From positions 1-62,458 of IMG/VR virus record IMGVR_UViG_3300045741_000405: a DNA stretch of 62,458 nucleotides. One strand, written 5' to 3'. Made by a program: the position numbers and the translations under genes. This DNA comes from a virus. Lineage: Duplodnaviria > Caudoviricetes. This document shows positions 1 to 61,580 of the stretch, piece after piece; positions within the stretch are counted from its first letter, which is position 1, and every line of letters starts with the position of its first letter. Below the pieces are notes generated by a model. The model was not told the origin of the DNA. It did not search any database and worked only from the letters and a program-made list of their open reading frames with translations.

Positions 1-147
1 ATGGAAAATAGGGATGGAATGTAGAAGATGTGGATTTTCCGGTCCATGCCCCCCCCCTACAATATTCCTAAGAATGAATGCACACTATGACAGTATGGAT
101 TCATTCCTAAGAATATTTCCATTGCTACACTATAGTATTCATGTACG
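1..147. repeat. Terminal direct repeat / circular assembly overlap (left copy)
   Basis: 1-147 matches 62311-62458 except for one extra C in the poly-C run of the right copy. Confidence 0.95.
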
Positions 148-310
148 AAATATGTACCGAATATCCGTACACTATCCACCATAGCTACTATCCCTACCCA
201 CATAGGCGTTTCGCTTACCGATGACCCGCAGCATCCCATTGCGTATAATCGCTTACGTCGCATCTGGAACATCTGATTTTTCAGCTTTTAAAAGTAAAAG
301 CATCTGACTC

Positions 311-523
311 TTATTCCTCAGGAATAAAGAAGTCTTTAGGTAGGGTATCTATCTTAGTATTTACCAGGTGGATCAGGTAGCGCAGCATATCTGGGTAGGT
401 GATACCCCAAGTAGCGCATTTGTACTTGAACTTCTCTTTCTCCGCATGATCCACTTTAAAAGCAGCTAGCCATGATTCATTATGAGAATCAGGAACGCAG
501 TGAGTGATTCGATTATTATCCAT
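311..523 (-). CDS. Small protein, possible ribbon-helix-helix DNA-binding protein
   Basis: AGGAGG SD upstream; AFKVDHAEKEKFKYKCATWGITYPDMLRYLI resembles an RHH pattern (inference). Confidence 0.5.
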   Translation of the reverse strand: MDNNRITHCVPDSHNESWLAAFKVDHAEKEKFKYKCATWGITYPDMLRYLIHLVNTKIDTLPKDFFIPEE

Positions 524-566
524 ATTATCCTCCTAATGATGATTATATAGATAATGAGGATAATGT

Positions 567-767
567 CTATGAATTAATAAGTAGAGCTACCTTAGAGAGT
601 TTATAGTGGAGGAAGTATTTCGTACCACAGGCGATACAGTGATAGTACTCTACTAGAAGTGGTCCGTTCCTACCTGGGGTAGGATCATTGGGTTTGGAAC
701 ATACAGGACATGTGGCCGGTAGCTGGGTAGATAAATACCGTTTGACGGAAACAATACGCTCTTTCAT
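567..767 (-). CDS. Zn-ribbon protein
   Basis: CPVC...CIAC; abuts the upstream gene. Confidence 0.6.
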   Translation of the reverse strand: MKERIVSVKRYLSTQLPATCPVCSKPNDPTPGRNGPLLVEYYHCIACGTKYFLHYKLSKVALLINS

Positions 768-769
768 CG

Positions 770-1003
770 TTAGGATCCTGAATGATTCGATTGAATTTTA
801 TTCCTCAGGAATAATGCGTTTTGAGCGCGGATGAGATTGTTCGCTACCTTTACCCTGTTGTAATCGTTCACTACAAATAACGCATGAATTATTCCTGGGA
901 ATAACCCAAGGACACACAATGGTATGTTCAGAATAGCTTGAAATGGCTTGCCACATCCAAGTATCGCTAATGGCGGTAATATGATCGCTAAAAAATACAT
1001 CAT
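770..1003 (-). CDS. YqaE/Pmp3-family small membrane protein
   Basis: YFLAIILPPLAIL...LNIPLCVLGLFPGIIHALFVV matches the family pattern. Confidence 0.85.
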   Translation of the reverse strand: MMYFLAIILPPLAILGCGKPFQAILNIPLCVLGLFPGIIHALFVVNDYNRVKVANNLIRAQNALFLRNKIQSNHSGS

Positions 1004-1043
1004 GGTGAGAATCCTAAAAGTAGTGAATGATTCGATTGAATTG

Positions 1044-1277
1044 TCACCCCTCGTAATGAGAGAAAAAGAATCGGTACGGAGTACATACCCGCTTGTTCTC
1101 GTCTATGTACCTACGGTATCTGTACACCGCTACAGTATGAGTAATGAGATTATTCCTAGGAATAATTGAGAACATCGATTCGTTCTCCATCCTGATAGGG
1201 TAACGAATCTCCTCACCACATATGGAAGAATCGTGAAATACCTCACCATCACCAGGTCCACCTACAAGTATTACCAT
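1044..1277 (-). CDS. Hypothetical protein
   Basis: ORF in the leftward operon; LVGGPGDG N-terminus; preceded by a palindrome variant supplying AGGA. Confidence 0.55.
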   Translation of the reverse strand: MVILVGGPGDGEVFHDSSICGEEIRYPIRMENESMFSIIPRNNLITHTVAVYRYRRYIDENKRVCTPYRFFFSHYEG

Positions 1278-1297
1278 CAGCTATTCCTAAGAATAAT

Positions 1298-1615
1298 TCA
1301 AATGGGGTTACGAACTAAACTACACTCGTCCATGTACCGATCCTCAGATCCGTCCTCCACCCAATAATCATTACTAGATATAACTAACCCAAGATCATTC
1401 GTCGAATGCACTACACTGTCTGACCCGTTCTTGATATCTAATAACTTCTGAATAAATCCAGCAAGATTACCTCGATACCTCGCCTTCACATGATCCCTCA
1501 ACTCCAATGCCGTTACATGATGAACACTCCTACCACTACCACTGTACCCAATAAAACCAATAACACCTACCGGCCTACTACCTACCGTTAAATAAATCCA
1601 CTTCAAGTTAGTCAT
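1298..1615 (-). CDS. Hypothetical protein
   Basis: GGAGG SD before ATG at 1615. Confidence 0.6.
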   Translation of the reverse strand: MTNLKWIYLTVGSRPVGVIGFIGYSGSGRSVHHVTALELRDHVKARYRGNLAGFIQKLLDIKNGSDSVVHSTNDLGLVISSNDYWVEDGSEDRYMDECSLVRNPI

Positions 1616-1904
1616 CAAAACCTCCAATTATTCCTAAGAATAATCCCATTCCTCATTATTCCTCAGGAATAATTCATAGGAATAATGCCTATGTCATTAT
1701 GGCAGTTCACCACAAAAACACCCCCTCCATTCTGCATATATAATACTGCCTTGAAAAATTCCCCACTTTGTCATAACTATGGTTATCATAATTAGTTCTG
1801 ACACACATGTGAAAATTGGGGCATTTTGCCACACTTTTAAAGGGGGTGGACCTAAAAATAGCTGCGGGGTCCACCCCCATGGTAATGGAAGGAAAGAGAA
1901 AAGT

Positions 1905-3059: not shown

Positions 3060-3079
3060 GTATTATTCCTAGGAATAAT

Positions 3080-3406: not shown

Positions 3407-3414
3407 AAGTCCTC

Positions 3415-6006: not shown

Positions 6007-6687
6007 ATGGCAAAAAAAGAAATTCTCAACCTTGATGAACTTGATCTTCCGTTGAGCAGTTTGAAAACCACACCAAGAGAAAAAAAGATCTTGGAGAAGC
6101 AGCAGTATCTTCAGGAAACAAATATTTCTGTTGGGAGGTGCCATGATTGCCCGGTAAACGATGCTTGCGCGTACCGGAGTGAGACCTCAATTACCTGTGG
6201 TGCTGCAAATGCCGCGATTAAATATTTTGAGGACGAAGTATACAAAGTTCCGCATATCTCGAAAGAAGATTCAATAGGGATACGCTCTTTGGCCAGCATT
6301 TATGCTTCAGGAATAATTGCGGAGCTGTATTTCAAGCGCTTTGGTTCTGTTGGGTTTAAGGTACTGGCAGATGGATCAAGACAAAGAGCGTTTATTGAGC
6401 TACATACGCAGTATTTGAGGATTCAGAAGCTTTTACAGGAGGGTTTAGGGCAATATGGGCTTACTCCAATGGGTCGAAAGCAGCTTATTCCTAAGAATAA
6501 TGGGTCGGAAATAGGCAAAAACAGCCTACATTTGTACCTTCAAACCATCGGAAAAGGACCAAAAAAGGCTGAAATTATCGACCAAAAAGAGGAAAAACAA
6601 GCCCTTCCAGAGCCATCTTTGCTACCAGATGGGATAGAATACCACCCATTAGAGGGTCTAAAAGTAGGCATTTTGAATGAATCTTAA
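6007..6687 (+). CDS. terS: Putative terminase small subunit
   Basis: Directly upstream of and overlapping TerL; YGLTPMGRKQL resembles the P27-type TerS motif. Confidence 0.65.
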   Translation: MAKKEILNLDELDLPLSSLKTTPREKKILEKQQYLQETNISVGRCHDCPVNDACAYRSETSITCGAANAAIKYFEDEVYKVPHISKEDSIGIRSLASIYASGIIAELYFKRFGSVGFKVLADGSRQRAFIELHTQYLRIQKLLQEGLGQYGLTPMGRKQLIPKNNGSEIGKNSLHLYLQTIGKGPKKAEIIDQKEEKQALPEPSLLPDGIEYHPLEGLKVGILNES

Positions 6688-8191: not shown

Positions 8192-8207
8192 TTATTCCTA
8201 GGAATAA
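8192..8207. promoter_or_regulatory. Representative copy of the genome-wide palindrome TTATTCCTAGGAATAA
   Basis: Perfect copies at 1150, 3063, 8192, 10941, 14255, 18852, 23027, 26336, 28765, 31408, 32770, 33251, 36882, 40600, 42453, 42667, 46027, 48104, 50954, 53007, 57828, 58629, 59231. Confidence 0.9.
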
Positions 8208-8292
8208 TTCTATTCTTAGGAATAATCTCAAAATCCACTTGACGAAGGTTAATCAAACCAGGTTAATTGTAAGAGAATAGATAAGGATTGAA

Positions 8293-10185
8293 GTGGCAAA
8301 AGAAACTCGTGTTCCGGCACGAAAGCGAGAACATTCTTCTACCTTAGGGGCGGTAATAGTTCGTGGTCCAACCCGTTTAATTAGTGACGCTGCTTTTATG
8401 TCTGGGCAGGACGTTGGTGGACCCGTTGAAGCACTCAGCTTCAATCGCATTGCAGCCTCGCACGCATGGGTGTACGCTTGCTGCCGAGCTATTTCGCAAA
8501 ATATTGCCGGAGTACCAGTTCGGTTTACGACTGGAAAATTAGACAATCTTAAAGAATTTACAGTAGACGACCGTGGAAATAAAGGGGAGCTAGTACAGTT
8601 ATTTGACCAACCCAATCAGTGGATGACTGGATTCCAGATGTGGGAATTGACCACAATGCTGATGAATCTGGATGGATCCGCATTTTGGGCATTAGAACGA
8701 AACGATATCACGCAAATTCCAAAATCGATTCTTGTTCTTAGGGCGACAAATTTTACGCCGGTCTATTCCGAGGTGAATGGATCAATTGTTTCTTGGATTT
8801 ATCAAGATCCATATACCCAGAATCGTGTGCCGCTTTCTTTAGCTCAGACATTGATGTTTAAATTCGCTAATCCCTATGATCCAGTATGGGGATTAAGCCC
8901 TCTTGCGGCTGCTTCAAGAGGGGTAATTTTGGACATGCTTGCGGCTGAGTATTCGCGGGCATTCTTTGAGAACTCAGCCGATCCTTCCGGTGTGATTGTC
9001 TCTGAGAAAAGACTGTCTGAGACGCAAGCCAACCAGATTATTTCTTGGTGGGAATCTAGGCATCGTGGTGCGGGGACAGCTAAGAAAATTGGTATTCTGT
9101 ACGGAGGAATGAAATATCAAACTACTGGAATCTCCCAAAAAGACATGGAGTTTCTGGAACAGCGGAAATGGACACGGGACGAAGTTCTTGCAGTATTCAA
9201 AGTACCGAAGTCAGAAATTTCCTTGTTTGAGGATGTCAATTTCAGTTCCTCGGTTTCCCAAGACAAGGGGTTTTGGCAGAAAACCCTAATCCCCATTCTC
9301 AAGAATTATGAATCGGTTTTATCTGCTCATTTTGTAACGGGTCTTCGTGCCACGGTTGACCCGAATCTTAGGATCTCATTTGATCTAAAATCAGTTTCAG
9401 CTCTTCAGCCAGATTTCTCAGAGCAGCTTAAAGCCGCAGAAGCTCTCAATAGGATCGGATACCCGATCAACGATATAAACGAGCGGCTTAAGCTTGGGAT
9501 GCCTAAGAAGGATTGGGGAGATACTTGGTTCCTTAATTCCGCTTTGATCACGGTTGAAGACGCTATCGCTGGAGTTGGTAAAGGAGTCACAGACGCTACT
9601 GGAGCACCTGTTCCTGGGCAGGCTAAACCTTCTCATCCTTCTGTTCCCGGTAGTAATGGGAAAGTTCCGCCAAGTTCTACTGATCCTAATGTTCCAAAGG
9701 ATCCAAAACCTCCCTCTGCCTCTGGGCAGACTAAAGCTCCGGTAGCAGCCAAGAAGATCTCGCAAGAGCTTTCAATTATTCTTAGGAATAATGAGGAAAT
9801 TCTTAAATCGGAACTTAAGGCATACTTTTGGAGACTTAGGGCGCATCAGCTTTCAAAAGCCCTTGAAAAAAGTGAAGTATACGATCATCAGGTTTGGGGA
9901 CAAAAGCTATCAAAGCGGTTGCAACCCCTTTTGTCCGACATGCTTACTAAAATCAGCACCAATATTGGTAAACCAAATCATCAATTAGAGTACACTCCTC
10001 CAGAATGGTTTAGCGTAATGGAGGAGCAACTGAAGAACGAGCTGATGCGCCTCTCCTCTAATCCGTCTGAAGACATGATTGCACGGCTAAAGAAATTCTT
10101 TAACCACATTACGAGCCAAGAAAATCTAACGTCACTGGCTCGTATGGAGATACATAGGGCGTTAGGCGCATTAGATGGAGTTTAG
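8293..10185 (+). CDS. HK97-family portal protein with C-terminal extension
   Basis: VYACCRAISQNIA, GLSPL, FFENSADPSG, DMEFLEQRK motifs; Pro-rich linker after ~aa 430. Confidence 0.93.
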   Translation: MAKETRVPARKREHSSTLGAVIVRGPTRLISDAAFMSGQDVGGPVEALSFNRIAASHAWVYACCRAISQNIAGVPVRFTTGKLDNLKEFTVDDRGNKGELVQLFDQPNQWMTGFQMWELTTMLMNLDGSAFWALERNDITQIPKSILVLRATNFTPVYSEVNGSIVSWIYQDPYTQNRVPLSLAQTLMFKFANPYDPVWGLSPLAAASRGVILDMLAAEYSRAFFENSADPSGVIVSEKRLSETQANQIISWWESRHRGAGTAKKIGILYGGMKYQTTGISQKDMEFLEQRKWTRDEVLAVFKVPKSEISLFEDVNFSSSVSQDKGFWQKTLIPILKNYESVLSAHFVTGLRATVDPNLRISFDLKSVSALQPDFSEQLKAAEALNRIGYPINDINERLKLGMPKKDWGDTWFLNSALITVEDAIAGVGKGVTDATGAPVPGQAKPSHPSVPGSNGKVPPSSTDPNVPKDPKPPSASGQTKAPVAAKKISQELSIILRNNEEILKSELKAYFWRLRAHQLSKALEKSEVYDHQVWGQKLSKRLQPLLSDMLTKISTNIGKPNHQLEYTPPEWFSVMEEQLKNELMRLSSNPSEDMIARLKKFFNHITSQENLTSLARMEIHRALGALDGV

Positions 10186-12376: not shown

Positions 12377-12412
12377 TGATTATTCCTAGGAATACTTTGG
12401 AGAACATGAATC

Positions 12413-12917: not shown

Positions 12918-12946
12918 GATTATTCCTAAGAATAAAGGAGTCACGA

Positions 12947-14254: not shown

Positions 14255-14276
14255 TTATTCCTAGGAATAATCGGCA

Positions 14277-43318: not shown

Positions 43319-43549
43319 TTGGAGGTGCAGATGATTACCGTGACGATGGGTAAGGTCATTATCTCAATCAATGGGAACTCCACAGAAGTCACTGTGGAAG
43401 AGGCCAGGGATCTTTTGAAGCAACTCAAAGAGCATTTTGAGATTCACAAGCCTAATCCATTCATCCCCTACCGAGAGAAAGATCACCCACTCCCATCCAT
43501 AGCTCCCTATACTGGACCTGAGATAACACCGTATTTCAAGCACAGTTAA
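43319..43549 (+). CDS. Hypothetical protein
   Basis: GGAGGTG SD (start probably 43331). Confidence 0.6.
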   Translation: MEVQMITVTMGKVIISINGNSTEVTVEEARDLLKQLKEHFEIHKPNPFIPYREKDHPLPSIAPYTGPEITPYFKHS

Positions 43550-43635
43550 AATTTTTTAAAATTTTAGTTGTAAAGGTTTTTATTTGTGATAGAGTACAGC
43601 AATAGAAATGAGGTGCTTCATGGAGCAGACAGGAG

Positions 43636-46026: not shown

Positions 46027-46042
46027 TTATTCCTAGGAATAA

Positions 46043-48103: not shown

Positions 48104-48122
48104 TTATTCCTAGGAATAATCC

Positions 48123-49769: not shown

Positions 49770-49782
49770 TTCTTAGGAATAA

Positions 49783-51774
49783 TTGATGAAGCATATTCAT
49801 GTCACGATTCAAGATTCGAACAGTTTGAAGCAGGAATTTGAGCTTCTTTCCAAACGTCGAAGTATTGGGTTTGATGTGGAGACCACGGGTCTTGATTGGT
49901 GGTCCAAGGATTCCAAGATTGTTGGATATGGATTGGGGTTCATTCAGGATAAAGAAACCATTCGGACTATTTACATTCCAGTTGGGTTAGATAAATCTTG
50001 GGTGAGTTTTGATGAAAAGCATACATCTGACCTTCTCAGACCAATTCTTTCAGATGAGAGCACAGCTAAGTTTGGAGCGAATATTAAATTCGATTCCCAC
50101 TTTGCTCGTAAATACGGTACAAAAATTAGTGCAGCTCATGACGTTCAGGCCATGGCTCGATTGGTTAGGTCCGGGTTTCATAGAGTAGGTTTAGAGGAGC
50201 TAATTAAGAATGAGTTCCAAGGAAGCCATGGTACATGGCAGGAACTAAAAACGTGGGGTAGGGAAAACGATATTCGAATAACGGACGGGGAAGTCGATCC
50301 AGGGGCATATGCAAAAGTAGATCCAAAGGTTCTCGGTAGGTATTGTGGGGAAGACGTTTATTGGACTCTACGTCTGGCATTTAGATACCTGAAGGATCTT
50401 CGTTCTGACCCGAGATTGTGGAGTCTTTATAAGAATGTTGAGCAGCCATTGATTCGATGCACGGAATCAATGGAGCATGAAGGGATCAGAATCGATCGAG
50501 GATATCTACAGTCTTGTAGAGAACGTCTTCTTCCTTTGGAAGAAAAGAATGAGAAACGGATTTATGATTTAGCGGGAAAGAGATTCAATATTAACTCGGT
50601 GAAACAGATAACAGAAATACTTCTTCCAATGGGTGTGGTTCCGCAGTTGCGAAGAAGAAAACGAAAAGACGGGTCTACGATCGAAACCCCAACGGTCGAT
50701 AAGAAATGTTTGGACAGCTATAGGAATCTCCCGATCATAGAAGCGATTCTTGAGTACAAAGGGATCAAGAAGCTCTTATCCACCTATGTAAACCCGCTTC
50801 TTGATCAGAACTCAGAGATCATTCATGCGTCAATAAAGCCGGAAGCGGCAAGGACGGGAAGGCTATCAGCGGTAAATCCGAATTTGATGAACCTTCCGAA
50901 TGTGGATGAATCTCTTCCTTCTTATAAGCGGGAGAATTCGATTCGAAGGGCAATTATTCCTAGGAATAATGGGTTTCAGGATGGGGTTTACCACGAGAAC
51001 GTCCTTCTTTCTGTTGATATGAAACAGATTGAGTATCGGTTACTGGCACATTTCTCAGAGGATCCAGCGCTTATCGAGGTATTTAAGAAAGGGCAAGATT
51101 TCCATGCGTATGTTGCCGGCCAGTTATTTGATGTTCCAGGTGATAAATTGGATAAGCACCAAAGATCCATTGGAAAGAAATTTAATTTCGCTCAACTTTA
51201 CGGGAGTAGTCTTGCTCATCTTGCTGAGCAGTGCGGAATCACGATTAAGAGAGCTGAAGGAATTGACAAGCAATATCGGGATCGTTTCCCTAGCATCATA
51301 CAATTTAAGCAAAGAACAGAATGCCAGTGTGTCAAAGAAGGAGGAGTGAGAAATGCTTTCGGTCGATTCAGAGCCCTTCCAAATTCCCTCAGTTACCGCG
51401 CAGTTAACACGCTTATCCAAGGAACTGCGGCAGATCTTTTCAAAATCGCAATCATCCGAGTTACAGAATCTCTTCAAGATAAGAATTCAAGGCTTTTATT
51501 TCCGGTCCATGATGAGCTTGTGATTAATTGGGATTTAACAGATGGGGATATTGTTTCTCCGATCATTAAGGCCATGACGATTTTTGAAACGAAGGGGGTT
51601 TCATTATTTCGCGTACCTTTGGATGTGGATGTAGCTATTTGCAGGAGTAATTGGGAAGAGCAAGAGGATTTGGATATCGAAGTGATTACGCAGGCTCATT
51701 TCGATAGGGTATCCAATGAAGAAGAAAAGATGCGAAAAATGTCTCGGGACAAAACATGTCCGAGTTGGGGATAG
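49783..51774 (+). CDS. polA: Family A DNA polymerase with 3'-5' exonuclease
   Basis: FDVETTGL, RTGRLS..NPNLMNLP, DMKQIEYR, KKFNFAQLYG, IQGTAAD, VHDEL. Confidence 0.95.
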   Translation: MMKHIHVTIQDSNSLKQEFELLSKRRSIGFDVETTGLDWWSKDSKIVGYGLGFIQDKETIRTIYIPVGLDKSWVSFDEKHTSDLLRPILSDESTAKFGANIKFDSHFARKYGTKISAAHDVQAMARLVRSGFHRVGLEELIKNEFQGSHGTWQELKTWGRENDIRITDGEVDPGAYAKVDPKVLGRYCGEDVYWTLRLAFRYLKDLRSDPRLWSLYKNVEQPLIRCTESMEHEGIRIDRGYLQSCRERLLPLEEKNEKRIYDLAGKRFNINSVKQITEILLPMGVVPQLRRRKRKDGSTIETPTVDKKCLDSYRNLPIIEAILEYKGIKKLLSTYVNPLLDQNSEIIHASIKPEAARTGRLSAVNPNLMNLPNVDESLPSYKRENSIRRAIIPRNNGFQDGVYHENVLLSVDMKQIEYRLLAHFSEDPALIEVFKKGQDFHAYVAGQLFDVPGDKLDKHQRSIGKKFNFAQLYGSSLAHLAEQCGITIKRAEGIDKQYRDRFPSIIQFKQRTECQCVKEGGVRNAFGRFRALPNSLSYRAVNTLIQGTAADLFKIAIIRVTESLQDKNSRLLFPVHDELVINWDLTDGDIVSPIIKAMTIFETKGVSLFRVPLDVDVAICRSNWEEQEDLDIEVITQAHFDRVSNEEEKMRKMSRDKTCPSWG

Positions 51775-52270
51775 TTGGGTAAGGTGTGATTGCCTACAAC
51801 GGCAATTGGTGGAAGATACGAAATTATTCTTAGGAATAATGCTCGAAGGTGGATGGGAACAATATGAGCGAAACGATACTCTCCGAGCTATTTATGAAAT
51901 CAATGCACAATTATTTGGAGTTTTCGACCTGTACGGCAACAGAGCAGATAGACGGTGGAAACTTGTCGCTCTCATTTCGAATCATTTTGCCAAAAAAGGA
52001 ACAACAATCACAGCGACAACGCTTAATGAATTGGTTGATGGGAAGTTTGGGCGAGATCAATTTCATTGGGACCGTTGCTGTCAGTCTGAGCTTCTCTGGC
52101 TCAGACTTGACTATACAAGGAAGCATTCCTGGAATGAGTCTGTTTTTTGTGAACTGCTTTCGAGAAGAACTCAGTACCTTACTATAATCACTTCGAGCAA
52201 TCCACTTAGGCATTCTTTATTTGAGATTAACCTTCTTGATTGTTCTGGGGTGATTCAGCATGAGGTTTGA
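51716..52270 (+). CDS. Possible degenerate DnaC/DnaI-like helicase loader
   Basis: CEKC...CDC Zn site, TIITSS, upstream of DnaB; Walker A not evident. Confidence 0.45.
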   Translation: MKKKRCEKCLGTKHVRVGDSWVRCDCLQRQLVEDTKLFLGIMLEGGWEQYERNDTLRAIYEINAQLFGVFDLYGNRADRRWKLVALISNHFAKKGTTITATTLNELVDGKFGRDQFHWDRCCQSELLWLRLDYTRKHSWNESVFCELLSRRTQYLTIITSSNPLRHSLFEINLLDCSGVIQHEV

Positions 52271-53618
52271 GTATGTAATTCTACGAAAGCTATTTGACGA
52301 TCCGAGTTCCAGGGAACGGCTTAAGCATTTAGAGCAGTTTGGGTTTCAAGAGGACATTCTCAAGTTTATCTATCGGTCTATCTTTGTTTCGAAGCTTCGA
52401 AATGTTCCAATTTCTCCGGAGTTCTACCTGAATTTCGTTGAGAGTAAGCGGCTAAAAGAGAAAACGCATGGGAAGGTAATTGAAGTAATCGGTTCTATTT
52501 TCGCGCTTAAATCACCATTAGAAAGTGAGGTGGAATATGCCATCAAAGGACTCAAGTACGAAGCAGAAACAAGAGCCTTCTGTAGACAGCTTGAAACCGC
52601 AGCAAAAGAAGTTTCTTTTGGAAACCTTGAATCGGCTAAACGGGTTCTTTACGAGGGAAAAGAACAATTACTTGCTTACTCAGATAGCGATAGCAGACGG
52701 AAATCAGCACGTTCGATGGCTGAGTTACGACCTAAGACGCTTGAAGGCAGCTACTCAACGGGCTTTAGAATCATTGATCAAATCGTAGGTGGTGGGCAAC
52801 GTACCGAGCTTTGGCTCGTCGCTGGGTATGTGGGCGAGTTGAAGTCTACCTTTTTGATTTCTATCGCCCACAACCTTTTTCTCAAGGGTAAGAAAGTTCT
52901 ATTTGTTTCTCTTGAGATGTCTATGGACGAGGTAAAGCAGCGATTGATAGGGCAGCACATTGCGTATATGGGAAAAATGGTTCCTTCATCTGAGATATCC
53001 TCGCAATTATTCCTAGGAATAAATGAGCAGTATTACCGTGAAGCGGTTGTAGATTTTGATTCCAATCCGGTATATGGGGATATTGAGATTTACCAACCGG
53101 AGTTAGGGGCGTCAATTATTGATGTAGGTAGGCAGATTGAAACAGGTTCACGTATTCTGGATGCTGTTATTATTGATTATGCGCAGCTTCTCACTCCACT
53201 TTCAAAGTCTTTAGAGCATCGGCACTCGCTCAATGATACGCTTCGGTACGCGAAGAAGATGGCCCTTGAGGCGTATGGGCGTAAGGGTGTGTTTATTGTG
53301 TCTGGGCATCAGACTTCTTCTGATGGTAGACATAGGGCGGAGGAGAAGGGGTTTTATGATTTGGCAGCCCTTTCTGAATCCATAGGAGCGGCTCAAATTG
53401 CGAATGTAGTTATTTGGTCCCTATTCACTGAAGAGATGCGAAGAAGAAATGAGATCAAGATAGGTCTTTCCAAGAGTCGTAATACCACTACCAATGGGTC
53501 GATCCATTTTCTTCCCGTAGATCTATCCTTTGGCCTTATTGGGAAAGAACCAATAGTAAAATCAGCGAATACGGTTTCTTCTGATTCGCTTGATGATTTG
53601 ATCAGCGATTATTCTTAG
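52260..53618 (+). CDS. dnaB: DnaB-like replicative helicase
   Basis: STGFRIIDQIVGG, AGYVGELKST, VSLEMS, IIDYAQL, KSRN. Confidence 0.85.
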   Translation: MRFEYVILRKLFDDPSSRERLKHLEQFGFQEDILKFIYRSIFVSKLRNVPISPEFYLNFVESKRLKEKTHGKVIEVIGSIFALKSPLESEVEYAIKGLKYEAETRAFCRQLETAAKEVSFGNLESAKRVLYEGKEQLLAYSDSDSRRKSARSMAELRPKTLEGSYSTGFRIIDQIVGGGQRTELWLVAGYVGELKSTFLISIAHNLFLKGKKVLFVSLEMSMDEVKQRLIGQHIAYMGKMVPSSEISSQLFLGINEQYYREAVVDFDSNPVYGDIEIYQPELGASIIDVGRQIETGSRILDAVIIDYAQLLTPLSKSLEHRHSLNDTLRYAKKMALEAYGRKGVFIVSGHQTSSDGRHRAEEKGFYDLAALSESIGAAQIANVVIWSLFTEEMRRRNEIKIGLSKSRNTTTNGSIHFLPVDLSFGLIGKEPIVKSANTVSSDSLDDLISDYS

Positions 53619-53626
53619 GAATAAGT

Positions 53627-54699: not shown

Positions 54700-55060
54700 G
54701 AAAAGGGTAATGCGGCAGAGAAATTTCAAAGAGGAAGGGGCAGAGCTACAAAAGAAAATGAGTCTTTTTGGGATTACTTCTAAGGAACTTTCTGAACGTA
54801 TCGCTTGTTCACATAGTCTTGTTAATTATTGGTTGAATGGCACAGGTTCTTGGCGAAATAGTAGGTACTACAGATCCGTTATGAATATTCTTAAGCCAGT
54901 GGATGCGAAGTCTGAAGATTCAGTTAGTAAAGAGCCTATTAATGTTTTTGAATGGATATTTGAAATGATGATGTTGATCAAAAGTGTTCGTGGTAAGGTT
55001 AAAATACCGGATCAAATTCTTGATGGAATTAAGGGAGCATTGAATCAGCTTTATTCTTAG
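54692..55060 (+). CDS. XRE-like HTH protein
   Basis: GITSKELSERIACSHSLVNYWLNG. Confidence 0.7.
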   Translation: MIRKRVMRQRNFKEEGAELQKKMSLFGITSKELSERIACSHSLVNYWLNGTGSWRNSRYYRSVMNILKPVDAKSEDSVSKEPINVFEWIFEMMMLIKSVRGKVKIPDQILDGIKGALNQLYS

Positions 55061-55192
55061 GAATAATTTGCCTGCCTGTGGGGGAAGCCACACCAACTTC
55101 AGTTAACCCCTTCAAAGAAGTCCTCTTTTTGTATGACTCAATTAGGCTTCCCCTACTTTTTAGTCTTAGGAATAGTGGAGAAAGGTGGTTGA

Positions 55193-57824: not shown

Positions 57825-58018
57825 AGGTTATTCCTAGGAATAAGAAGAAAGCCAAGCCGATGAATCCTACTCCAGTTGTTCTTGCTTTAGAGGATATTAG
57901 TAAGTGCAGGGACATTATTGAGGCAGGGTTTCACCGTAACTGTGCTTTTATTCGTCACCTTGATGGGTATATTAAGCATTTGAAGAAGCTCATCGCCAAA
58001 GGGGAGTTTCAGGAATAG
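57821..58018 (+). CDS. Hypothetical protein
   Basis: ATGA coupling. Confidence 0.55.
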   Translation: MKVIPRNKKKAKPMNPTPVVLALEDISKCRDIIEAGFHRNCAFIRHLDGYIKHLKKLIAKGEFQE

Positions 58019-58372: not shown

Positions 58373-58523
58373 GGCTTTCCTTGCTTTTATAACGGTACTT
58401 ATTTGTGGTTTAGTGTTTCCCTTCAACCAGCTCATTACCTATCGGCAGTATGTCACTATCGTTGGTTCATTCTTAGGAATAATGTCTTTTCTTTACCTTA
58501 TCTGGGTTTTAGTAGAATCATAG
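58359..58523 (+). CDS. 54-aa two-TM membrane protein (not in ORF track)
   Basis: MRSFKAFLAFITVLICGLVF...VTIVGSFLGIMSFLYLIWVLVES. Confidence 0.5.
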   Translation: MRSFKAFLAFITVLICGLVFPFNQLITYRQYVTIVGSFLGIMSFLYLIWVLVES

Positions 58524-58603: not shown

Positions 58604-58630
58604 GGGGAGGAATTCTATTCCTCCCCATTT
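58604..58630 (+). terminator. Hairpin / probable terminator
   Basis: GGGGAGGAAT-TCT-ATTCCTCCCC then ATTT. Confidence 0.55.
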
Positions 58631-58660
58631 ATTCCTAGGAATAATTGAGGGGTACTCACC

Positions 58661-59117: not shown

Positions 59118-59218
59118 GGTAATATTCCTTTCCCAATAAATAGGGTACCAACTAAACCCTATTATTATCCTCCCCCAAAACACTCCCTCCCCCCTACCCA
59201 TGGTAATTATTCCTAAGA

Positions 59219-59485
59219 CTAAAATCAGGATTATTCCTAGGAATAATTGAGAACTAAAATCAGAGTTCGATATCATACAGCTAAATTAGATTCAGCTAAA
59301 ATCAGTGGGTTGAAGATATTCTTCAGGAATAATTGGGAACTAAAATCAGTGCCCATCCAAGAGGTACAAACAACTAAAATCAGTGCTCTATGGAATTAGG
59401 GGCAACTAAAATCAGAACCCAACAAAACTAAAAACAGAATTAGCTAAAATCAGTTTTAACTAAAATCAGTTTTAACTAAAATCAG
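59219..59485 (+). repeat. Iteron-like CTAAAATCAG direct repeats
   Basis: Exact copies at 59219, 59254, 59296, 59340, 59374, 59406, 59444, 59460, 59476; variants at 59281 and 59428. Confidence 0.85.
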
Positions 59486-59554
59486 GCCGCCGGCCCAGCC
59501 AGCTACCCCCCGCTCTGGGCGCGAAAACTTGCCATGTATCCGCGCCCTGTTTTT

Positions 59555-59835
59555 CGGTGGGGAATTTTTCCCAGTGGAATTTTTCCCACAAATGGGAAAT
59601 TTTTCCCATAGGCGTTATTCCTACGAATATAGGAAAAATTCCTACGAATATAGGCGTTATTCCTATAGGCATTATTCCTACGAATATAGGCGTTATTCCT
59701 ACGAATCTTTCCTATAGGAATTTTTCCTACGAATATAGAAATTTTTCTTATAGGCATTATTCTTACGAATATAGGCGTTATTCCTATAGGCATTATTCTT
59801 ACGAATATTGGAATCTTTTACCATAGGCATTATTT
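59555..59835. repeat. Degenerate tandem array related to the genome-wide palindrome
   Basis: About seven TTCYTACGAAT, several TTCCTATAGG and GGGAA(A)TTTTTCCC units. Confidence 0.85.
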
Positions 59836-60038
59836 GGCATGATATTTTATTTTTTGAATTGGCATAGCAATTGCGCCGCGCGCGTGCGCGATGATGATAC
59901 GTATTGGATCGGCTTTGTGGGATTTTGAAAATTTTCAAAAATTTTAGTTGCGAGACCTTGTTCCTAGGGCTATAGATGAGCGTAGATATTAAGGATTCGG
60001 ATGGGCCGGATCCCAAATATCGAAAGAAGGAGATAGAC

Positions 60039-60221
60039 ATGATTCGCACCGAGAAAATTTCCGCTACGTACTACATCGCAGTCCGATCTAGCTATGATCC
60101 GATGCGCGTATGTGGTGTCAATGGTGGTGGGGCGACGCGGGCGAAAGCTAGGGCCGATCTCCTGCGCCAAGAGCGGTCGGCCGGAGTATGTCATGCCCGC
60201 CGCCAGGAGCAGCGGAAGTAA
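60039..60221 (+). CDS. Hypothetical protein
   Basis: AAGGAG SD before ATG at 60039. Confidence 0.5.
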   Translation: MIRTEKISATYYIAVRSSYDPMRVCGVNGGGATRAKARADLLRQERSAGVCHARRQEQRK

Positions 60222-60269
60222 TTTAATGGGATTTTTTTGTTGGTTCCTTTTTTGGAGATTTTTTTATCG

Positions 60270-60452
60270 ATGGAAAAGTATGATGGATGTCCGATGTGTG
60301 GCATGCAGATTATCTACGGCGATGAGCGCTCGACGTGGTATCGTGGGCGATGGTACTGTTCATCCGATTGCGTCGGGGAGGCCGATGCGGAATACTGCGC
60401 CGAAATAGACGCGGAAGCTGACGCCGATTTCATCGAACAGGACCTCTACTGA
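60270..60452 (+). CDS. Small Cys-rich protein (CPMC...YCSSDC)
   Basis: TRASH/YHS-like Cys spacing, acidic tail. Confidence 0.5.
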   Translation: MEKYDGCPMCGMQIIYGDERSTWYRGRWYCSSDCVGEADAEYCAEIDAEADADFIEQDLY

Positions 60453-60495
60453 GTCAGTATGGATTCATTCCCAGGAATAATGGAGGGAAACAGCA

Positions 60496-61521
60496 ATGGC
60501 ACATATGATCGAATCTCGATTCGTTGTTGGTTCGACGAATATCTGGAATACGAAAAATCTGCAAGCGGAGGGGGTTCGAGCGATCCAGCTCGAAAAAGCC
60601 CCATCGATCGCTGAAGCGATTACTCTCGCTGGGCTTAACTGGCGGGTGGCGTTGGACTCTATCTATGATGGGAATGGGCGGAGTATCGATGGGTATTTTC
60701 GTACGATGCGCGCGGACACTAGTGCTACTCTCGGAGTAGTCCAGAGCCGCTATCGGCCACTGCAGAATGTTGACGCTTTTGCATCTTTTCAGGGGCTCAT
60801 TGACTCTGGGAAGATGACACTTGAGACTGCTGGCTCTTTGCGTAATGGCCAGTTAGTCTGGATTCTTGGAAAAATTTGGGAAGCTACTCTTTCGCAGCAT
60901 GACCATCTCGTATCCTATCTTTGCCTTTCTAATGGCCACAATGGCCGTTGGACTCTGAAGGTACAGGGAACAACGACTAGGGTTGAATGCCACAACACGT
61001 TGATGCAGTCGACGGCCAAAGGTGATTTTACCTCGATCAAACATACTCGATCCATTGGTGATCGGCTTTCGAAGGAGATGCAGATGTGGGAGAGTATGAT
61101 TCGCACCAATGAATCTTTTGCGATCGACTGTCAGAAAATGCTCGACACTATGCTTTCGGAGAAGCGAGCGTACGAGTATTTCGATGAGCTTTTTGTCGCC
61201 AAAAAAAAGCCAACCACGGAAAAGGAATCGGTGATGGATGATCTTTTGCGGGGTGGATCGGTAGAACGGAAGCAAGTGGTTGATGAGTTGCTTGATGGTC
61301 GAGCTACGAAGGTGCGCGACAGGGTTCGTGAAATTTACGAATCCCAGGATAAGATTGTAGGTGGTGCGCGTGGTACTGCTTGGCGAGCGTATCAGGCGGT
61401 TACTAGCTATTTGTCTCATGATGCATCCCGGACGGAAGATGGGGCGAAGTTGAAGGAGATCGTTGACGCCGATCCTAAGGTAGCAGAAGCGCATAGGCTA
61501 TTGATGTCGATCATTGCGTAG
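60496..61521 (+). CDS. DUF932-family phage/plasmid protein
   Basis: AGLNWRV, LGVV..RY.PLQN, ETAGSLRNG, NGHNG, RVECHNTL, GTAWRAYQAVT. Confidence 0.85.
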   Translation: MAHMIESRFVVGSTNIWNTKNLQAEGVRAIQLEKAPSIAEAITLAGLNWRVALDSIYDGNGRSIDGYFRTMRADTSATLGVVQSRYRPLQNVDAFASFQGLIDSGKMTLETAGSLRNGQLVWILGKIWEATLSQHDHLVSYLCLSNGHNGRWTLKVQGTTTRVECHNTLMQSTAKGDFTSIKHTRSIGDRLSKEMQMWESMIRTNESFAIDCQKMLDTMLSEKRAYEYFDELFVAKKKPTTEKESVMDDLLRGGSVERKQVVDELLDGRATKVRDRVREIYESQDKIVGGARGTAWRAYQAVTSYLSHDASRTEDGAKLKEIVDADPKVAEAHRLLMSIIA

Positions 61522-61580
61522 TCTAGTCCATTATTCCTCAGGAATATTCATGTCGGATATTCCTGAGGAATAATCTATCA

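What the first reader, a model, noticed from the sequence alone, without database searches (positions are those of the whole stretch)
61..61573. Genome-wide 16-bp palindrome TTATTCCTAGGAATAA, roughly one copy per kb
Seen: 23 perfect copies by eye plus about 30 variants. Variation is concentrated in the centre (CTTAGG/CCTAAG, CCTGGG/CCCAGG, 17-bp CCTCAGG/CCTGAGG) while the TTATTC...GAATAA arms are mostly kept. Copies lie in gene junctions, in clusters (1628-1686, 8192-8225, 59207-59332, 61531-61573) and inside genes such as the protease (10941), PolA (50954), DnaB (53007), portal (9776) and SNF2 (48436). In-gene copies are read in two frames (IIPRNN and LFLGI), so selection is on the nucleic acid. 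Established analogues: dispersed KorB and Noc sites, and mycobacteriophage stoperators. Inference: a genome-scale marking system, such as protein coating or silencing, self/non-self tagging, or a 6-7-bp stem with a 4-5-nt loop recognised as RNA or cruciform. Tolerance of a 5-nt centre favours a hairpin over a rigid dimer site.
Basis: partly seen in the sequence, partly recalled or inferred. Interest (0 to 1): 0.9.

Follow-up and report, generated by a model that had tools for sequence, protein, structure and literature searches.

The report
Phage-wide palindrome at gene junctions
An uncultured 62-kb phage carries about 59 copies of one 16-18-base palindrome, mostly wedged exactly between one gene's stop and the next gene's start, and it is most likely the docking site of a DNA-binding protein of the phage, a kind of genome-wide mark seen before in a few phages but never explained.

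Summary
The record is a whole phage genome (unit about 62,310 bp) with 23 exact copies of the 16-mer (0 expected) and 59 distinct sites at up to 2 mismatches. 38 of 59 sit at gene junctions, 16 deep inside genes, 5 in a non-coding control region. Fifteen begin at the base after a TGA/TAA stop. At 19 junctions the right arm supplies the only Shine-Dalgarno (AGGA). In-gene copies exceed a codon-shuffled null (14 against 1.2).

The one relative found (33 kb, syntenic, 25-54% protein identity) has no such palindrome, although it keeps the same XRE + ParB-like gene pair. In-gene sites arose there mostly by substitution.

Best reading (0.5): docking sites for a dimeric sequence-specific DNA-binding protein. 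The leading candidate (about 0.3) is the phage's ParB/Noc/KorB-type protein. An mRNA hairpin or translational-coupling cassette is the main rival (0.2).

It is a new variant of a known but unexplained kind, the 17-bp repeats of Cluster O mycobacteriophages. This scan has noted similar junction palindromes in other phages.

The parts
311..327 (.). 17-bp site, exact; overlaps end of ORF 311-523(-)
798..814 (.). 17-bp site, exact; inside ORF 770-1003(-)
889..904 (.). 16-bp site, 1 mismatch; inside ORF 770-1003(-)
1150..1165 (.). 16-bp site, exact; inside ORF 1044-1277(-)
1281..1296 (.). 16-bp site, 2 mismatches; gene junction
1628..1643 (.). 16-bp site, 1 mismatch; gene junction (cluster 1628-1685)
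1656..1672 (.). 17-bp site, exact; gene junction (cluster)
1670..1685 (.). 16-bp site, 2 mismatches; gene junction (cluster)
3063..3078 (.). 16-bp site, exact; gene junction, minus-strand genes
6300..6316 (.). 17-bp site, 2 mismatches; inside ORF 6007-6687
6485..6500 (.). 16-bp site, 1 mismatch; inside ORF 6007-6687
8192..8207 (.). 16-bp site, exact; abuts stop of large terminase
8210..8225 (.). 16-bp site, 2 mismatches; same junction
9776..9791 (.). 16-bp site, 1 mismatch; inside portal gene
10941..10956 (.). 16-bp site, exact; inside protease gene
12380..12395 (.). 16-bp site, 1 mismatch; junction after major head gene
12920..12935 (.). 16-bp site, 1 mismatch (AAGA arm); junction, own AGGAG follows
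14255..14270 (.). 16-bp site, exact; abuts stop, start 6 nt after
17617..17632 (.). 16-bp site, 2 mismatches; overlaps end of ORF 14277-17639, start 6 nt after
18852..18867 (.). 16-bp site, exact; abuts stop, start 5 nt after
20575..20590 (.). 16-bp site, 1 mismatch; junction, start abuts
21657..21672 (.). 16-bp site, 1 mismatch; inside ORF 20882-22252
23027..23042 (.). 16-bp site, exact; abuts stop, overlaps next ATG by 1
24221..24236 (.). 16-bp site, 1 mismatch; overlaps stop, start 5 nt after
25285..25300 (.). 16-bp site, 1 mismatch (AAGA arm); abuts stop, own GGAG follows
26336..26351 (.). 16-bp site, exact; abuts stop
28765..28780 (.). 16-bp site, exact; 1 nt after stop, start 3 nt after
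31408..31423 (.). 16-bp site, exact; abuts stop, start 2 nt after
32770..32785 (.). 16-bp site, exact; abuts stop, overlaps next ATG by 1
33251..33266 (.). 16-bp site, exact; in last codons of ORF 32785-33273, 3 nt before start of J-like tail gene
33361..33377 (.). 17-bp site, 1 mismatch; inside J-like tail gene
36882..36897 (.). 16-bp site, exact; abuts stop of J-like gene
40600..40615 (.). 16-bp site, exact; abuts stop
41294..41309 (.). 16-bp site, 1 mismatch; junction
42453..42468 (.). 16-bp site, exact; abuts stop, start 3 nt after
42667..42682 (.). 16-bp site, exact; abuts stop
43303..43318 (.). 16-bp site, 1 mismatch; abuts stop
44919..44934 (.). 16-bp site, 2 mismatches; inside ORF 44852-45259
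46027..46042 (.). 16-bp site, exact; fills the whole gap between stop and ATG
46260..46275 (.). 16-bp site, 2 mismatches; inside ORF 46043-46567
48104..48119 (.). 16-bp site, exact; between RecA-like and SNF2 genes (these overlap in the relative)
48436..48451 (.). 16-bp site, 1 mismatch; inside SNF2 gene (LILRNK; no gap against relative)
49767..49782 (.). 16-bp site, 2 mismatches; overlaps SNF2 stop, abuts PolA start
50954..50969 (.). 16-bp site, exact; inside PolA (IIPRNN: IIP aligns with VLP, RNN starts an 8-aa insertion)
51824..51839 (.). 16-bp site, 1 mismatch; inside ORF 51716-52270
53007..53022 (.). 16-bp site, exact; inside DnaB (LFLGI aligns with DLVNG, no gap at the site)
53609..53624 (.). 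16-bp site, 1 mismatch; holds DnaB stop, primase start 2 nt after
55051..55066 (.). 16-bp site, 1 mismatch; its central TAG is the stop of ORF 54692-55060
57828..57843 (.). 16-bp site, exact; junction after MazG-like gene
58467..58482 (.). 16-bp site, 2 mismatches; inside small ORF 58359-58523
58629..58644 (.). 16-bp site, exact; 2 nt after terminator-like hairpin 58604-58626
59207..59222 (.). 16-bp site, 2 mismatches; control region, next to iteron
59231..59246 (.). 16-bp site, exact; control region, next to iteron
59316..59332 (.). 17-bp site, 2 mismatches; control region, next to iteron
59608..59834 (.). array of about 6 units of 36 bp (21+15), each with the half-site TTATTCCTA or the 2-mismatch variant with CTAC centre (includes sites 59615 and 59672)
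60465..60480 (.). 16-bp site, 2 mismatches; 15 nt before DUF932 gene
61531..61547 (.). 17-bp site, 1 mismatch; junction (pair)
61557..61573 (.). 17-bp site, 1 mismatch; 7 nt before start at 61581
43981..44862 (+). ParB/Noc/KorB-type protein (P0001, 293 aa): candidate binder
43636..43977 (+). XRE-type helix-turn-helix protein, 3 nt upstream of the ParB-like gene; second candidate
43548..43570 (+). 23-bp AT-rich element before a promoter-like site upstream of the XRE/ParB genes; second copy at 59928-59950

Best explanation
The palindrome is a DNA-level docking site for a dimeric, sequence-specific DNA-binding protein made by the phage. Its core is 16 bp and conservation fades outwards over 18 to 22 bp (CAA-TTATTCCTAGGAATAA-TTG). 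The site is repeated about once per kb so that the whole chromosome is marked.

The leading candidate binder is the ParB/Noc/KorB-type protein at 43981-44862 (my odds about 0.3 of the 0.5). It would nucleate on the sites and, like its relatives, could close as a CTP clamp and slide, coating or silencing the genome. The variant array in the origin-like control region would serve as a centromere-like or operator cluster.

Because the genome is about 95% coding, sites could settle almost only in the gaps between genes. There they were squeezed against the stop codon, whose last A is the outer base of the palindrome. At 19 junctions the right arm (AGGA) was taken over as the ribosome-binding site. 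Further sites were created inside variable parts of genes by substitution.

Shown: the counts, the placement, nucleotide-level selection, the Shine-Dalgarno overlap, absence from the relative, and the family of the candidate protein. Inferred: that a protein binds the sites, which protein, and what binding achieves.
For: 1. Sequence is conserved, not pairing. Among 87 ATTC-N4-5-GAAT cores, 47 vary in the two outer arm pairs. 43 of those 47 carry only pair-breaking changes and 4 of 47 any complementary double change. T8 and A9 at the centre are invariant.

2. The flanks are symmetric. A at -1 in 30 of 39 sites and T at +1 in 28 of 39. TTG on the free right side of 12 of 25 junction sites, and its complement CAA on the left of 5 of 14 in-gene sites.

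3. 16 sites lie deep inside genes against protein-level expectation (14 against 1.2). In SNF2 and DnaB the alignment to the relative shows no gap at the site, so these look like substitutions.

4. Copies and half-site variants stand in a 1.1-kb non-coding region with about 11 iterons and a 36-bp array. Such regions usually act as DNA-level origin or operator regions; that reading is inferred.

5. The phage encodes a ParB_N + HTH protein (Pfam E=1.9e-15). It has the IAGKRR box read. Its best solved relatives are Noc (E=2e-16), ParB and KorB. Its model (pLDDT 80.8) matches Noc, KorB and ParB at Foldseek probability 1.00. Those proteins nucleate on 13-16-bp palindromes; Noc uses 16-bp NBS sites (abstract of PMC8429893 in the listing).

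6. A conjugative Acinetobacter plasmid encodes a member of the same ParB sub-family (27% identity over residues 24-272). It carries 6 exact copies and 1 variant of a different 16-bp palindrome across 38.5 kb.

7. Cluster O mycobacteriophages show the same kind of repeat at the same density (23 in 24.8 kb). Their authors predict a dimeric DNA-binding protein (PMC4351075, passages).
Against: 1. The one relative found, G001 (33,393 bp), matches 23 of the window's 88 crude ORFs at 25-54% identity. It keeps the XRE + ParB-like pair (23% and 32% identity). It has no repeated palindrome: no dyad with 6-bp arms occurs more than twice, and the best 5-bp dyad (4 copies) is matched by 2 of 20 shuffles. 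The homologous part of the window holds 25 sites. So the ParB-like gene does not by itself go with such sites.

2. 8 of 59 sites have a 17-bp spacing, which a rigid dimer tolerates poorly.

3. The helix after the HTH lacks the GHAR-type motif of ParB/Noc. Only one of the four specificity positions of PMC7383237 (Q at the position of Noc Q158) can be mapped.

4. No ParA gene was seen among the 72 ORFs scanned.

5. The three longest genes, 14277-17639, 33270-36881 and 37271-39871, hold no site in their interiors; the only ones are 17617 and 33361 near gene ends. Sites are therefore not placed to fill gaps, and spacing is only mildly regular (CV 0.88, not significant; 0.70 after collapsing clusters, 0.4% of random draws).

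6. The exact abutment to stops and the Shine-Dalgarno overlap fit an mRNA role as well.

7. No binding was tested.
Confidence: 0.5

Rival explanations
1. The site works in the mRNA. It is a standard stop-hairpin-start cassette whose left arm pairs with the Shine-Dalgarno in the right arm. The downstream gene is then translated only when a ribosome terminating at the abutting stop melts the hairpin (translational coupling). Alternatively the hairpin is the target of a phage RNA-binding repressor or endoribonuclease, as T4 RegA or RegB act on ribosome-binding sites (recalled).
For: - 38 of 59 sites are at junctions.
- 15 start at the base after a TGA/TAA stop.
- At 19 of 19 junction sites with the start codon within 7 nt, the sense-strand right arm keeps AGGA. 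The 2 junction sites with AAGA (12920, 25285) have their own AGGAG or GGAG before the start.
- 25 of 31 gaps of 16 nt or more in the rightward gene block hold a site.
- Loop lengths of 4 and 5 nt are both found.
- The 24-nt RNAs fold as the expected hairpin, -4.4 to -5.8 kcal/mol, z -2.4 to -6.1.
Against: - 16 sites deep in genes and 5 in non-coding DNA have no start codon to serve, yet the in-gene ones are strongly selected.
- Pair-breaking arm changes outnumber compensatory ones 43 to 4.
- The loop letters T8 and A9 never vary.
- The hairpin is weak.
- About half of the junction sites are followed by a separate Shine-Dalgarno outside the hairpin.
- The relative manages the same junctions with overlaps or short spacers.
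- There is no clear orientation bias of the asymmetric variant: 9 sense CTTAGG against 4 sense CCTAAG among single-mismatch sites.
Confidence: 0.2
2. The sites are bound by, or aimed at, a host factor rather than a phage protein. They could be a decoy or hijack of a host nucleoid, division or regulatory protein, or a mark tied to host modification of the CCTAGG centre.
For: - Outside the motif CCTAGG is nearly absent (2 of 28).
- Nearly all single changes are C>T at the inner C of CCTAGG or its complement (13 of 16). That is the change expected from deamination of a methylated C (inference).
- The relative keeps the phage's candidate binders but lacks the sites.
- Earlier notes of this scan link other phage palindromes to host SlmA sites (unchecked leads).
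Against: - No bacterial genome with many copies was seen among the 120 rows returned, except Porphyromonas levii, where the 16-mer is part of a different 22-bp tandem element with other flanks.
- The phage uses Shine-Dalgarno sites, which Bacteroidota are known not to rely on (established knowledge, recalled).
- No DNA methyltransferase was found; only a generic Methyltransf_11 domain at 40627-41163.
- The host is unknown.
Confidence: 0.1
3. The palindrome is a self-spreading or recombination-driven element. It would be a short sequence copied from junction to junction by gene conversion or microhomology recombination, or a linker that promotes exchange of gene modules, with no role for the phage's gene expression.
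For: - At junctions where the relative's genes overlap or abut, the site looks like an insertion. In the relative, RecA/SNF2 and DnaB/primase overlap and SNF2/PolA are 17 nt apart.
- The phage has its own RecA-like protein and a possible junction resolvase.
- Copies are very uniform (23 exact).
Against: - In-gene copies in SNF2 and DnaB show no length change.
- No transposase, RAYT-type or homing enzyme was found in the 72 ORFs scanned.
- 16-22 bp is below the usual length for recombination between copies (recalled).
- Cluster O authors saw no link between their repeats and rearrangements (PMC4351075).
- No variant lacking a segment between two sites was seen, but only contigs could be laid.
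Confidence: 0.1
4. The site acts as extruded cruciform or single-strand DNA hairpin during replication, recombination or packaging, recognised by structure.
For: - A perfect AT-rich palindrome with a TA centre.
- The DNA hairpin is predicted at -2.9 to -4.4 kcal/mol.
- Both 4- and 5-nt centres occur.
- There is a weak match to a Holliday-junction resolvase family at 46043-46567 (E=1.6e-4).
Against: - Arms of 6-8 bp give very weak hairpins.
- Sequence rather than pairing is conserved.
- No nicking or hairpin-binding enzyme was identified.
- Read ends could not be examined, because only contigs are kept.
Confidence: 0.05

Closest known systems
17-bp dyad repeats of Cluster O mycobacteriophages (Corndog and kin; PMC4351075, abstract and passages read)
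   Same: - A single palindrome with invariant 7-bp arms and a variable centre.
- More than 30 copies spread over a roughly 70-kb siphovirus genome, mostly between genes with about a third inside them.
- Similar local density: 23 in the right-hand 24.8 kb of Corndog against 59 in 62.3 kb here.
- No integrase, and a ParB-domain gene present.
- Function unknown; the authors predict a dimeric DNA-binding protein.
   Different: - Other sequence (TGTTCGG-N3-CCGAACA), other phage lineage and other host.
- The authors state that their repeats are not closely tied to translation starts. Here 15 abut stop codons and 19 provide the Shine-Dalgarno.
- Corndog gp90 shows only the ParB_N domain, with no HTH found. 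The protein here has the full ParB/Noc-type N-terminal domain plus HTH.
KorB with its OB operators, and KorA with OA, on plasmid RK2 (PMC11790492, abstract and passages read)
   Same: - A ParB-family CTP clamp that loads on dispersed short palindromes and slides to silence promoters at a distance, helped by a small HTH partner encoded nearby.
- Here a small HTH gene sits 3 nt upstream of the ParB-like gene, and the pair is kept in the relative.
- KorB is among the sequence and fold matches.
- A separate 23-bp element marks two promoter-like regions, as OA does.
   Different: - RK2 has about a dozen OB sites (number recalled); this genome has 59.
- No ParA/IncC partner was seen here.
- No binding, CTP use or silencing has been shown.
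- The test for XRE-ParB contact gave no verdict.
Noc and its NBS sites in Bacillus (PMC7383237 passages; PMC8429893 abstract in a search listing)
   Same: - The best sequence and fold match of the candidate protein (E=2e-16).
- A 16-bp palindrome with a TTCC..GGAA core; the NBS as I recall it shares 5 of 8 half-site letters with this site.
- Many sites dispersed over a chromosome rather than one centromere.
- Q at the position of Noc Q158.
   Different: - The other three Noc specificity residues are not matched or not alignable.
- The N-terminus is acidic, not the membrane-targeting helix of Noc (sequence read; Noc feature recalled).
- This is a phage, not a cellular chromosome, and sites are roughly 50 times denser (Noc site number recalled).
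SopB centromeres: sopC of F and the separate IR1-4 sites of prophage-plasmid N15 (PMC7205306, passages read)
   Same: - A ParB-family protein binds short inverted repeats.
- In F they form a tandem array (10 copies, 43-bp spacing), like the 36-bp array at 59608-59834.
- In N15 there are four separate natural IR sites; that they lie scattered in the phage genome is recalled.
   Different: - Four sites against 59.
- Those systems have a ParA (SopA) and a proven plasmid-prophage state; neither is shown here.
Stoperators of Cluster A and start-associated sequences of Cluster K mycobacteriophages (as described in the discussion of PMC4351075; details otherwise recalled)
   Same: - Tens of copies of one short motif in short intergenic gaps across a phage genome.
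- Stoperators are repressor sites that silence the whole genome.
- Start-associated sequences sit just before start codons, as many sites do here.
   Different: - Stoperators are asymmetric and oriented with transcription, and start-associated sequences are not palindromes.
- This motif is a perfect palindrome found on both gene orientations and inside genes.
REP-type extragenic palindromes of bacteria
   Same: Short palindromes placed right after stop codons inside operons, in many copies.
   Different: - REPs are host-genome families, longer and imperfect, extragenic only, and linked to RAYT transposases.
- Here the element is confined to one phage. 16 copies lie in genes and no such enzyme was found.

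Membership tests
ParB/Noc/KorB protein family (candidate binder, 43981-44862) | N-terminal ParB-type nucleotide-binding domain | tested here: met
   Pfam ParB_N E=1.9e-15, 57.1 bits against cut-off 26.3. PHROG ParB-like partition protein E=5e-19.
ParB/Noc/KorB protein family (candidate binder, 43981-44862) | Conserved GxxR(R) box of the CTP pocket | tested here: met
   IAGKRRVMA read in the translation. G82, R84 and R85 are invariant or nearly so in the 16-member family alignment. Nucleotide binding itself was not tested.
ParB/Noc/KorB protein family (candidate binder, 43981-44862) | Helix-turn-helix DNA-binding domain following the N-terminal domain | tested here: met
   Pfam HTH_ParB (21.4 bits) and KorB (20.3 bits) fall just under their cut-offs. 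However, phmmer aligns residues 10-178 to Noc through the recognition helix, and the model matches the Noc, KorB and ParB N-terminal domain plus DNA-binding domain at probability 1.00.
ParB/Noc/KorB protein family (candidate binder, 43981-44862) | Noc or ParB specificity residues (positions 173, 179, 184, 201 of PMC7383237) | tested here: inconclusive
   Q156 aligns with Noc Q158. M162 and E167 stand where Noc has K164 and K169. The fourth position lies beyond the alignable part.
ParB/Noc/KorB protein family (candidate binder, 43981-44862) | ParA-type partner ATPase | tested here: not met
   None among the 72 ORFs scanned with Pfam or PHROGs. Noc likewise has none (recalled).
ParB-type nucleation site (parS / NBS / OB) | Short palindrome of 13-16 bp | tested here: met
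   A 16-bp perfect palindrome, with weaker symmetry out to 22 bp.
ParB-type nucleation site (parS / NBS / OB) | Specific binding by the cognate ParB-family protein | not testable with these tools
   No protein-DNA prediction or assay was available.
ParB-type nucleation site (parS / NBS / OB) | Co-occurrence of sites with the protein in relatives | tested here: not met
   - G001 keeps the protein but has no repeated palindrome in 33.4 kb.
- One plasmid with a family member does have 6+1 copies of another 16-bp palindrome.
- A second plasmid had none in the 50,000 of its 87,540 bases that I fetched, a part that does not include its parB gene.
Cluster O-type dispersed dyad repeats of phages | More than 30 copies of one 16-17-bp dyad repeat throughout a phage genome, with invariant arms and a variable centre | tested here: met
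   59 sites, with variation concentrated at positions 7/10 and in centre length. My scanner recovers 23 copies in 24.8 kb of Corndog as a control.
Cluster O-type dispersed dyad repeats of phages | Mostly intergenic, about one third in coding regions | tested here: met
   38 junction, 5 non-coding and 16 deep in genes, of 59.
Cluster O-type dispersed dyad repeats of phages | Not closely linked to translation start sites (authors' description) | tested here: not met
   19 sites lie within 7 nt of a start and supply its AGGA; 15 abut a stop.
Stoperators (Cluster A mycobacteriophages) | Asymmetric site oriented with transcription | tested here: not met
   Perfect palindrome. The asymmetric variants show no clear orientation (9 against 4).
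REP / REPIN elements | Strictly extragenic, with an associated RAYT transposase | tested here: not met
   16 sites lie deep in genes. No transposase-like family appears in the scans.
Structured RNA element (hairpin conserved for pairing) | Compensatory changes that keep the stem | tested here: not met
   4 of 47 variant cores show any complementary double change in the outer arm pairs; 43 of 47 show only pair-breaking changes. No relatives with the motif exist for a proper covariation test.

The most novel reading that the evidence does not exclude
A virus-wide ParB 'chromatin'. In this reading a Noc/KorB-type CTP clamp of the phage loads at about 59 sites, one per kb, and coats the entire phage chromosome. 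The purpose could be silencing in a plasmid-like carrier state, protection, or organisation of replicating DNA. The same 16 letters would be built into stop-start junctions so that they work twice: as a docking site in DNA, and as a ribosome-binding or coupling hairpin in the mRNA. The lineage would have created the sites de novo, even inside its polymerase, helicase and portal genes, after splitting from a relative that has the protein but not the sites.
Probability: 0.2. Interest if true: 0.85.

Novelty: new variant of a known kind. Interest (0 to 1): 0.62.

Why it matters
Dispersed palindromes in phage genomes have been in print since at least 2015 (Cluster O) without a binder or a function. 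This scan keeps meeting them in unrelated phages and phage-plasmids.

This genome is an extreme and clean case:
- One site per kb.
- 23 identical copies.
- Sites forced into conserved enzymes.
- A sister genome without the sites.
- A named candidate protein of a family whose biochemistry (CTP-dependent loading on 16-bp palindromes) can be tested in a test tube, without the unknown host.

If the ParB-like protein binds, it would show that phages use ParB clamps for genome-wide marking, and it would suggest what the many orphan ParB-like genes of phages do. If it does not bind, the tight fusion of the site with stop codons and ribosome-binding sites points to a new kind of translational punctuation.

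Tried and rejected
Searches for relatives or other carriers of the motif:
- Megablast of 12 kb against cultured phages: no match.
- The exact 16-mer in IMG/VR: 12 contigs with one copy each.
- The 18-mer in metagenome contigs: 28 contigs with one copy each. No other carrier of the motif was found.
- The 16-mer in species genomes: scattered single hits plus Porphyromonas levii, judged a different element. The list was cut at 120 rows.
- Major head protein, P0001, P0004, P0005 and P0010 as queries in IMG/VR: nothing close.
- Alignment A1 was not accepted as a query.
- A word-index protein search found only the query itself.
- The PolA pair alignment found only G001 again, plus 5 distant loci without palindromes.
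- Relatives cannot be drawn for a virus record.

Other hypotheses tested:
- Promoter idea: sigma-70-like sites are not enriched (12 against 17.2 expected, and 13 against 12.2). A start codon within 7 nt of 19 sites leaves no room for a transcript start. No phage RNA polymerase or sigma factor was seen in 72 scanned ORFs.
- Clean 18-bp insertion of in-gene sites: not supported.
- Regular spacing: weak.

Blank or uninformative results:
- tRNA scan: none found.
- DnaB against solved structures: no hit.
- Sequencing runs: no RNA holder listed; one DNA run kept as contigs.
- Laid contigs cover only part of the stretch. The five 'joints' are cross-matches between motif copies with 20-22-nt sides.
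- Predicted contact between the XRE protein and the ParB-like protein: no verdict.
- Earlier findings by place and by protein sequence: empty.
- Literature search for the 16-mer itself: 0 papers. The other six searches gave comparators only.
- Supplementary files of papers were not opened.

Full report
WHAT THE WINDOW IS. The window is a whole IMG/VR virus record. Its first 147 bases recur at 62311-62458, with one C more or fewer in a C-run, so the unit genome is about 62,310 bp and probably complete. It is a siphovirus-type phage. Identified genes are:
- large terminase, portal, protease, major head protein and a J-like tail protein;
- a RecA-like protein, SNF2 helicase, PolA, DnaB, a primase zinc-finger protein, a second helicase, MazG and a DUF932 protein.
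No tRNA, integrase, RNA polymerase or DNA methyltransferase was found among the 72 ORFs scanned. The only run that holds the phage is a sediment metagenome. The host is unknown. The genes use ordinary GGAG-type ribosome-binding sites.

There are 23 exact copies against 0.00 expected. At up to 2 mismatches, counting the 17-bp CCTNAGG form, there are 59 distinct sites. Markov-1 and Markov-3 simulations gave 0.0 and 0.33. 26 of the 28 CCTAGG in the genome lie in the motif. This is the only palindrome family in the genome.

Variation is narrow:
- 13 of 16 single-mismatch sites are C7>T or its mirror G10>A.
- T8 and A9 do not vary.
- Flanks extend the symmetry: A at -1 in 30 of 39 sites and T at +1 in 28 of 39.
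- Where one side is free of coding constraint it tends to TTG (right side, 12 of 25 junction sites) or to its complement CAA (left side, 5 of 14 in-gene sites).
The preferred sequence is therefore a palindrome of up to 22 bp.

PLACEMENT. With crude ORF calls, 38 of 59 sites are at gene junctions, 16 are deep inside genes and 5 are in a non-coding region. About 95% of the genome is coding.
- In the rightward gene block, 25 of 31 gaps of 16 nt or more contain a site, as do 6 of 34 shorter junctions. The remaining junctions are overlaps or short spacers with a GGAG-type site.
- Fifteen sites begin at the base after a TGA or TAA, so the stop's last A is the outer base of the palindrome.
- Nineteen sites have the next start codon within 7 nt, and all 19 keep AGGA in the sense-strand right arm, where no other purine tract is available.
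- The two junction sites whose right arm reads AAGA are followed by their own AGGAG or GGAG.
So the right arm doubles as ribosome-binding site.
- The three longest genes hold no site in their interiors; the only ones there are 17617 and 33361 near gene ends. Spacing is only mildly regular.

IN-GENE COPIES ARE SELECTED AS NUCLEIC ACID. ORFs hold 14 sites at up to 1 mismatch, against a mean of 1.2 (maximum 3) in 40 synonymous-codon shuffles. The peptides IIPRN (5 times) and LFLGI (3 times) recur in unrelated proteins.

A RELATIVE WITHOUT THE MOTIF. HMMER against 1.84 billion representatives showed that the ParB-like protein has a full-length family. One member led to IMG/VR contig G001 (33,393 bp).
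- 23 of the window's 88 crude ORFs match it at 25-54% identity, in the same order. The matches run from the tail genes to the J-like protein and from the ParB-like gene to the primase.
- G001 has no repeated palindrome. The homologous part of the window holds 25 sites.
- Its junctions are overlaps or short plain spacers. RecA/SNF2 and DnaB/primase overlap there, whereas the window has a site between them.
- In SNF2 the site peptide LILRNK aligns without a gap to VLAAAS, and in DnaB LFLGI aligns to DLVNG.
- In PolA, IIP aligns to VLP (and to FIAP of Klenow), and RNN begins an 8-residue insertion.
The sites were therefore gained in this lineage or lost in the other. Inside genes they arose mainly by substitution in variable segments, not by a clean 18-bp insertion.

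THE CONTROL REGION. Bases 58940-60040 are non-coding. They hold:
- three sites, each next to an AACTAAAATCAG iteron (about 11 iterons in all);
- a GC-rich stretch;
- GGAATTTTTCCCA repeats;
- an array of about six 36-bp units, each with the half-site TTATTCCTA or a 2-mismatch version of the palindrome.
This looks like an origin or centromere-like region, where sequence usually acts as DNA.

A 23-bp AT-rich element occurs exactly twice (0 expected). One copy precedes a promoter-like site upstream of the XRE/ParB genes, and the other precedes the rightward genes next to this region.

CANDIDATE BINDER. ORF 43981-44862 has a ParB_N domain, the IAGKRR box and a ParB-type helix-turn-helix. Its best solved relatives by sequence are Noc (E=2e-16), ParB and KorB. 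A model with pLDDT 80.8 matches the same proteins at probability 1.00. An XRE-type gene lies 3 nt upstream, and G001 keeps the pair. ParB-family proteins nucleate on 13-16-bp palindromes; Noc and KorB use dispersed ones (PMC7383237, PMC11790492, PMC8429893).

Only one of Noc's four specificity positions can be matched (Q156), and the GHAR-type helix is missing.

In favour of a link: a conjugative Acinetobacter plasmid with a member of this sub-family carries 6 exact copies and 1 variant of another 16-bp palindrome over 38.5 kb.

Against it: G001 has the protein but no sites.

DNA OR RNA. The 24-nt RNAs fold into the expected hairpin, but weakly (-4.4 to -5.8 kcal/mol). Among 47 cores with changes in the outer arm pairs, 43 carry only pair-breaking changes and 4 any complementary double change. 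The asymmetric variant shows no clear orientation with transcription (9 against 4).

These points, together with the in-gene and non-coding copies, favour recognition of sequence in duplex DNA. The abutment to stops, the Shine-Dalgarno overlap and the two centre lengths keep an mRNA role alive, perhaps as a second use of the same letters.

COMPARISON AND VERDICT. The nearest thing in print is the 17-bp dyad repeat of Cluster O mycobacteriophages. It has the same copy density (my scanner finds 23 in 24.8 kb of Corndog), its function is unknown, and its authors predict a dimeric binder (PMC4351075). The present case differs in three ways:
- its fusion with stop codons and ribosome-binding sites;
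- the strength of in-gene selection;
- a complete ParB/Noc-type candidate protein, whereas Corndog gp90 shows only ParB_N.

Earlier notes of this scan describe similar junction palindromes in other phages and phage-plasmids. They are unchecked leads that agree with this reading.

I rate the finding a new variant of a known, unexplained kind. My odds are:
- docking sites for a DNA-binding protein, 0.5, of which the ParB-like protein takes about 0.3;
- an mRNA cassette, 0.2;
- a host factor, 0.1;
- spread by recombination, 0.1;
- a cruciform or single-strand hairpin, 0.05.

Noticed in passing
window 3745-5412: A 1.67-kb array built from the hexamer CGGCTC (about 275 copies) with a higher-order period of 221 bp (7.6 copies). 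GC is about 53% against 44% elsewhere. It is open in several frames on both strands (AP-, ELEPER- and RS-type repeats), and since 221 is not a multiple of 3 the frame shifts from unit to unit. It holds no copy of the palindrome.
   Followed up: partly
window 59217-59485: About 11 copies of the iteron AACTAAAATCAG, the last four in a 16-bp tandem array, followed by a GC-rich stretch. This is probably the replication origin. Three palindrome copies sit directly beside iterons.
   Followed up: partly
window 43548-43570 and 59928-59950: A 23-bp AT-rich element (AAAATTTT-NN-AAAATTTTAGTTG) occurs exactly twice. Each copy runs into a promoter-like -35/-10 pair: one before the XRE/ParB genes and one before the rightward genes at 60040. 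It is a possible operator of the XRE protein.
   Followed up: partly
window 1-147 and 62311-62458: A terminal direct repeat, identical except for the length of a C-run. It contains an inverted pair of 3-mismatch site variants (62-77 and 101-116). The record is classed 'linear, 60% complete', but the repeat suggests a complete genome.
   Followed up: partly
loci L047-L117 (Porphyromonas levii DSM 23370, many contigs): The same 16-mer is part of a REP-like intergenic element made of tandem 22-bp palindromic units (AAATTTATT-centre-AATAAATTT) with varying centres, present on at least 20 contigs. The flanks differ from the phage's, so this is probably coincidence.
   Followed up: partly
L168 (plasmid CP033518.1, locus 7063-33781): Six exact copies and one variant of the 16-bp palindrome GTTGCGGATCCGCAAC are spaced 3-7 kb apart on a conjugative Acinetobacter plasmid that encodes a ParB of the same sub-family. 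There are also four copies of a longer repeat containing two other palindromes.
   Followed up: partly
G001 (L171 1693, 1773, 5793, 9255; L169): The relative phage has its own small motif, GGATTGAAAC. Three of its copies follow a GC-rich hairpin and others lie just before start codons. It also has four TTCCA-N3-TGGAA dyads in two pairs, which is not above chance.
   Followed up: partly
window 14277-17639: A 1120-residue protein with Kelch repeats sits between the head and tail genes. A 652-residue pectate-lyase-like protein (29449-31407) is absent from the relative.
   Followed up: no
window 20918-21286: Three tandem 123-bp units (68-73% alike) lie inside ORF 20882-22252.
   Followed up: no
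window 58604-58626 and 62230-62265: Two strong terminator-like hairpins. The first reads the same on both strands and is followed 2 nt later by an exact palindrome copy. The second ends the rightward genes.
   Followed up: no
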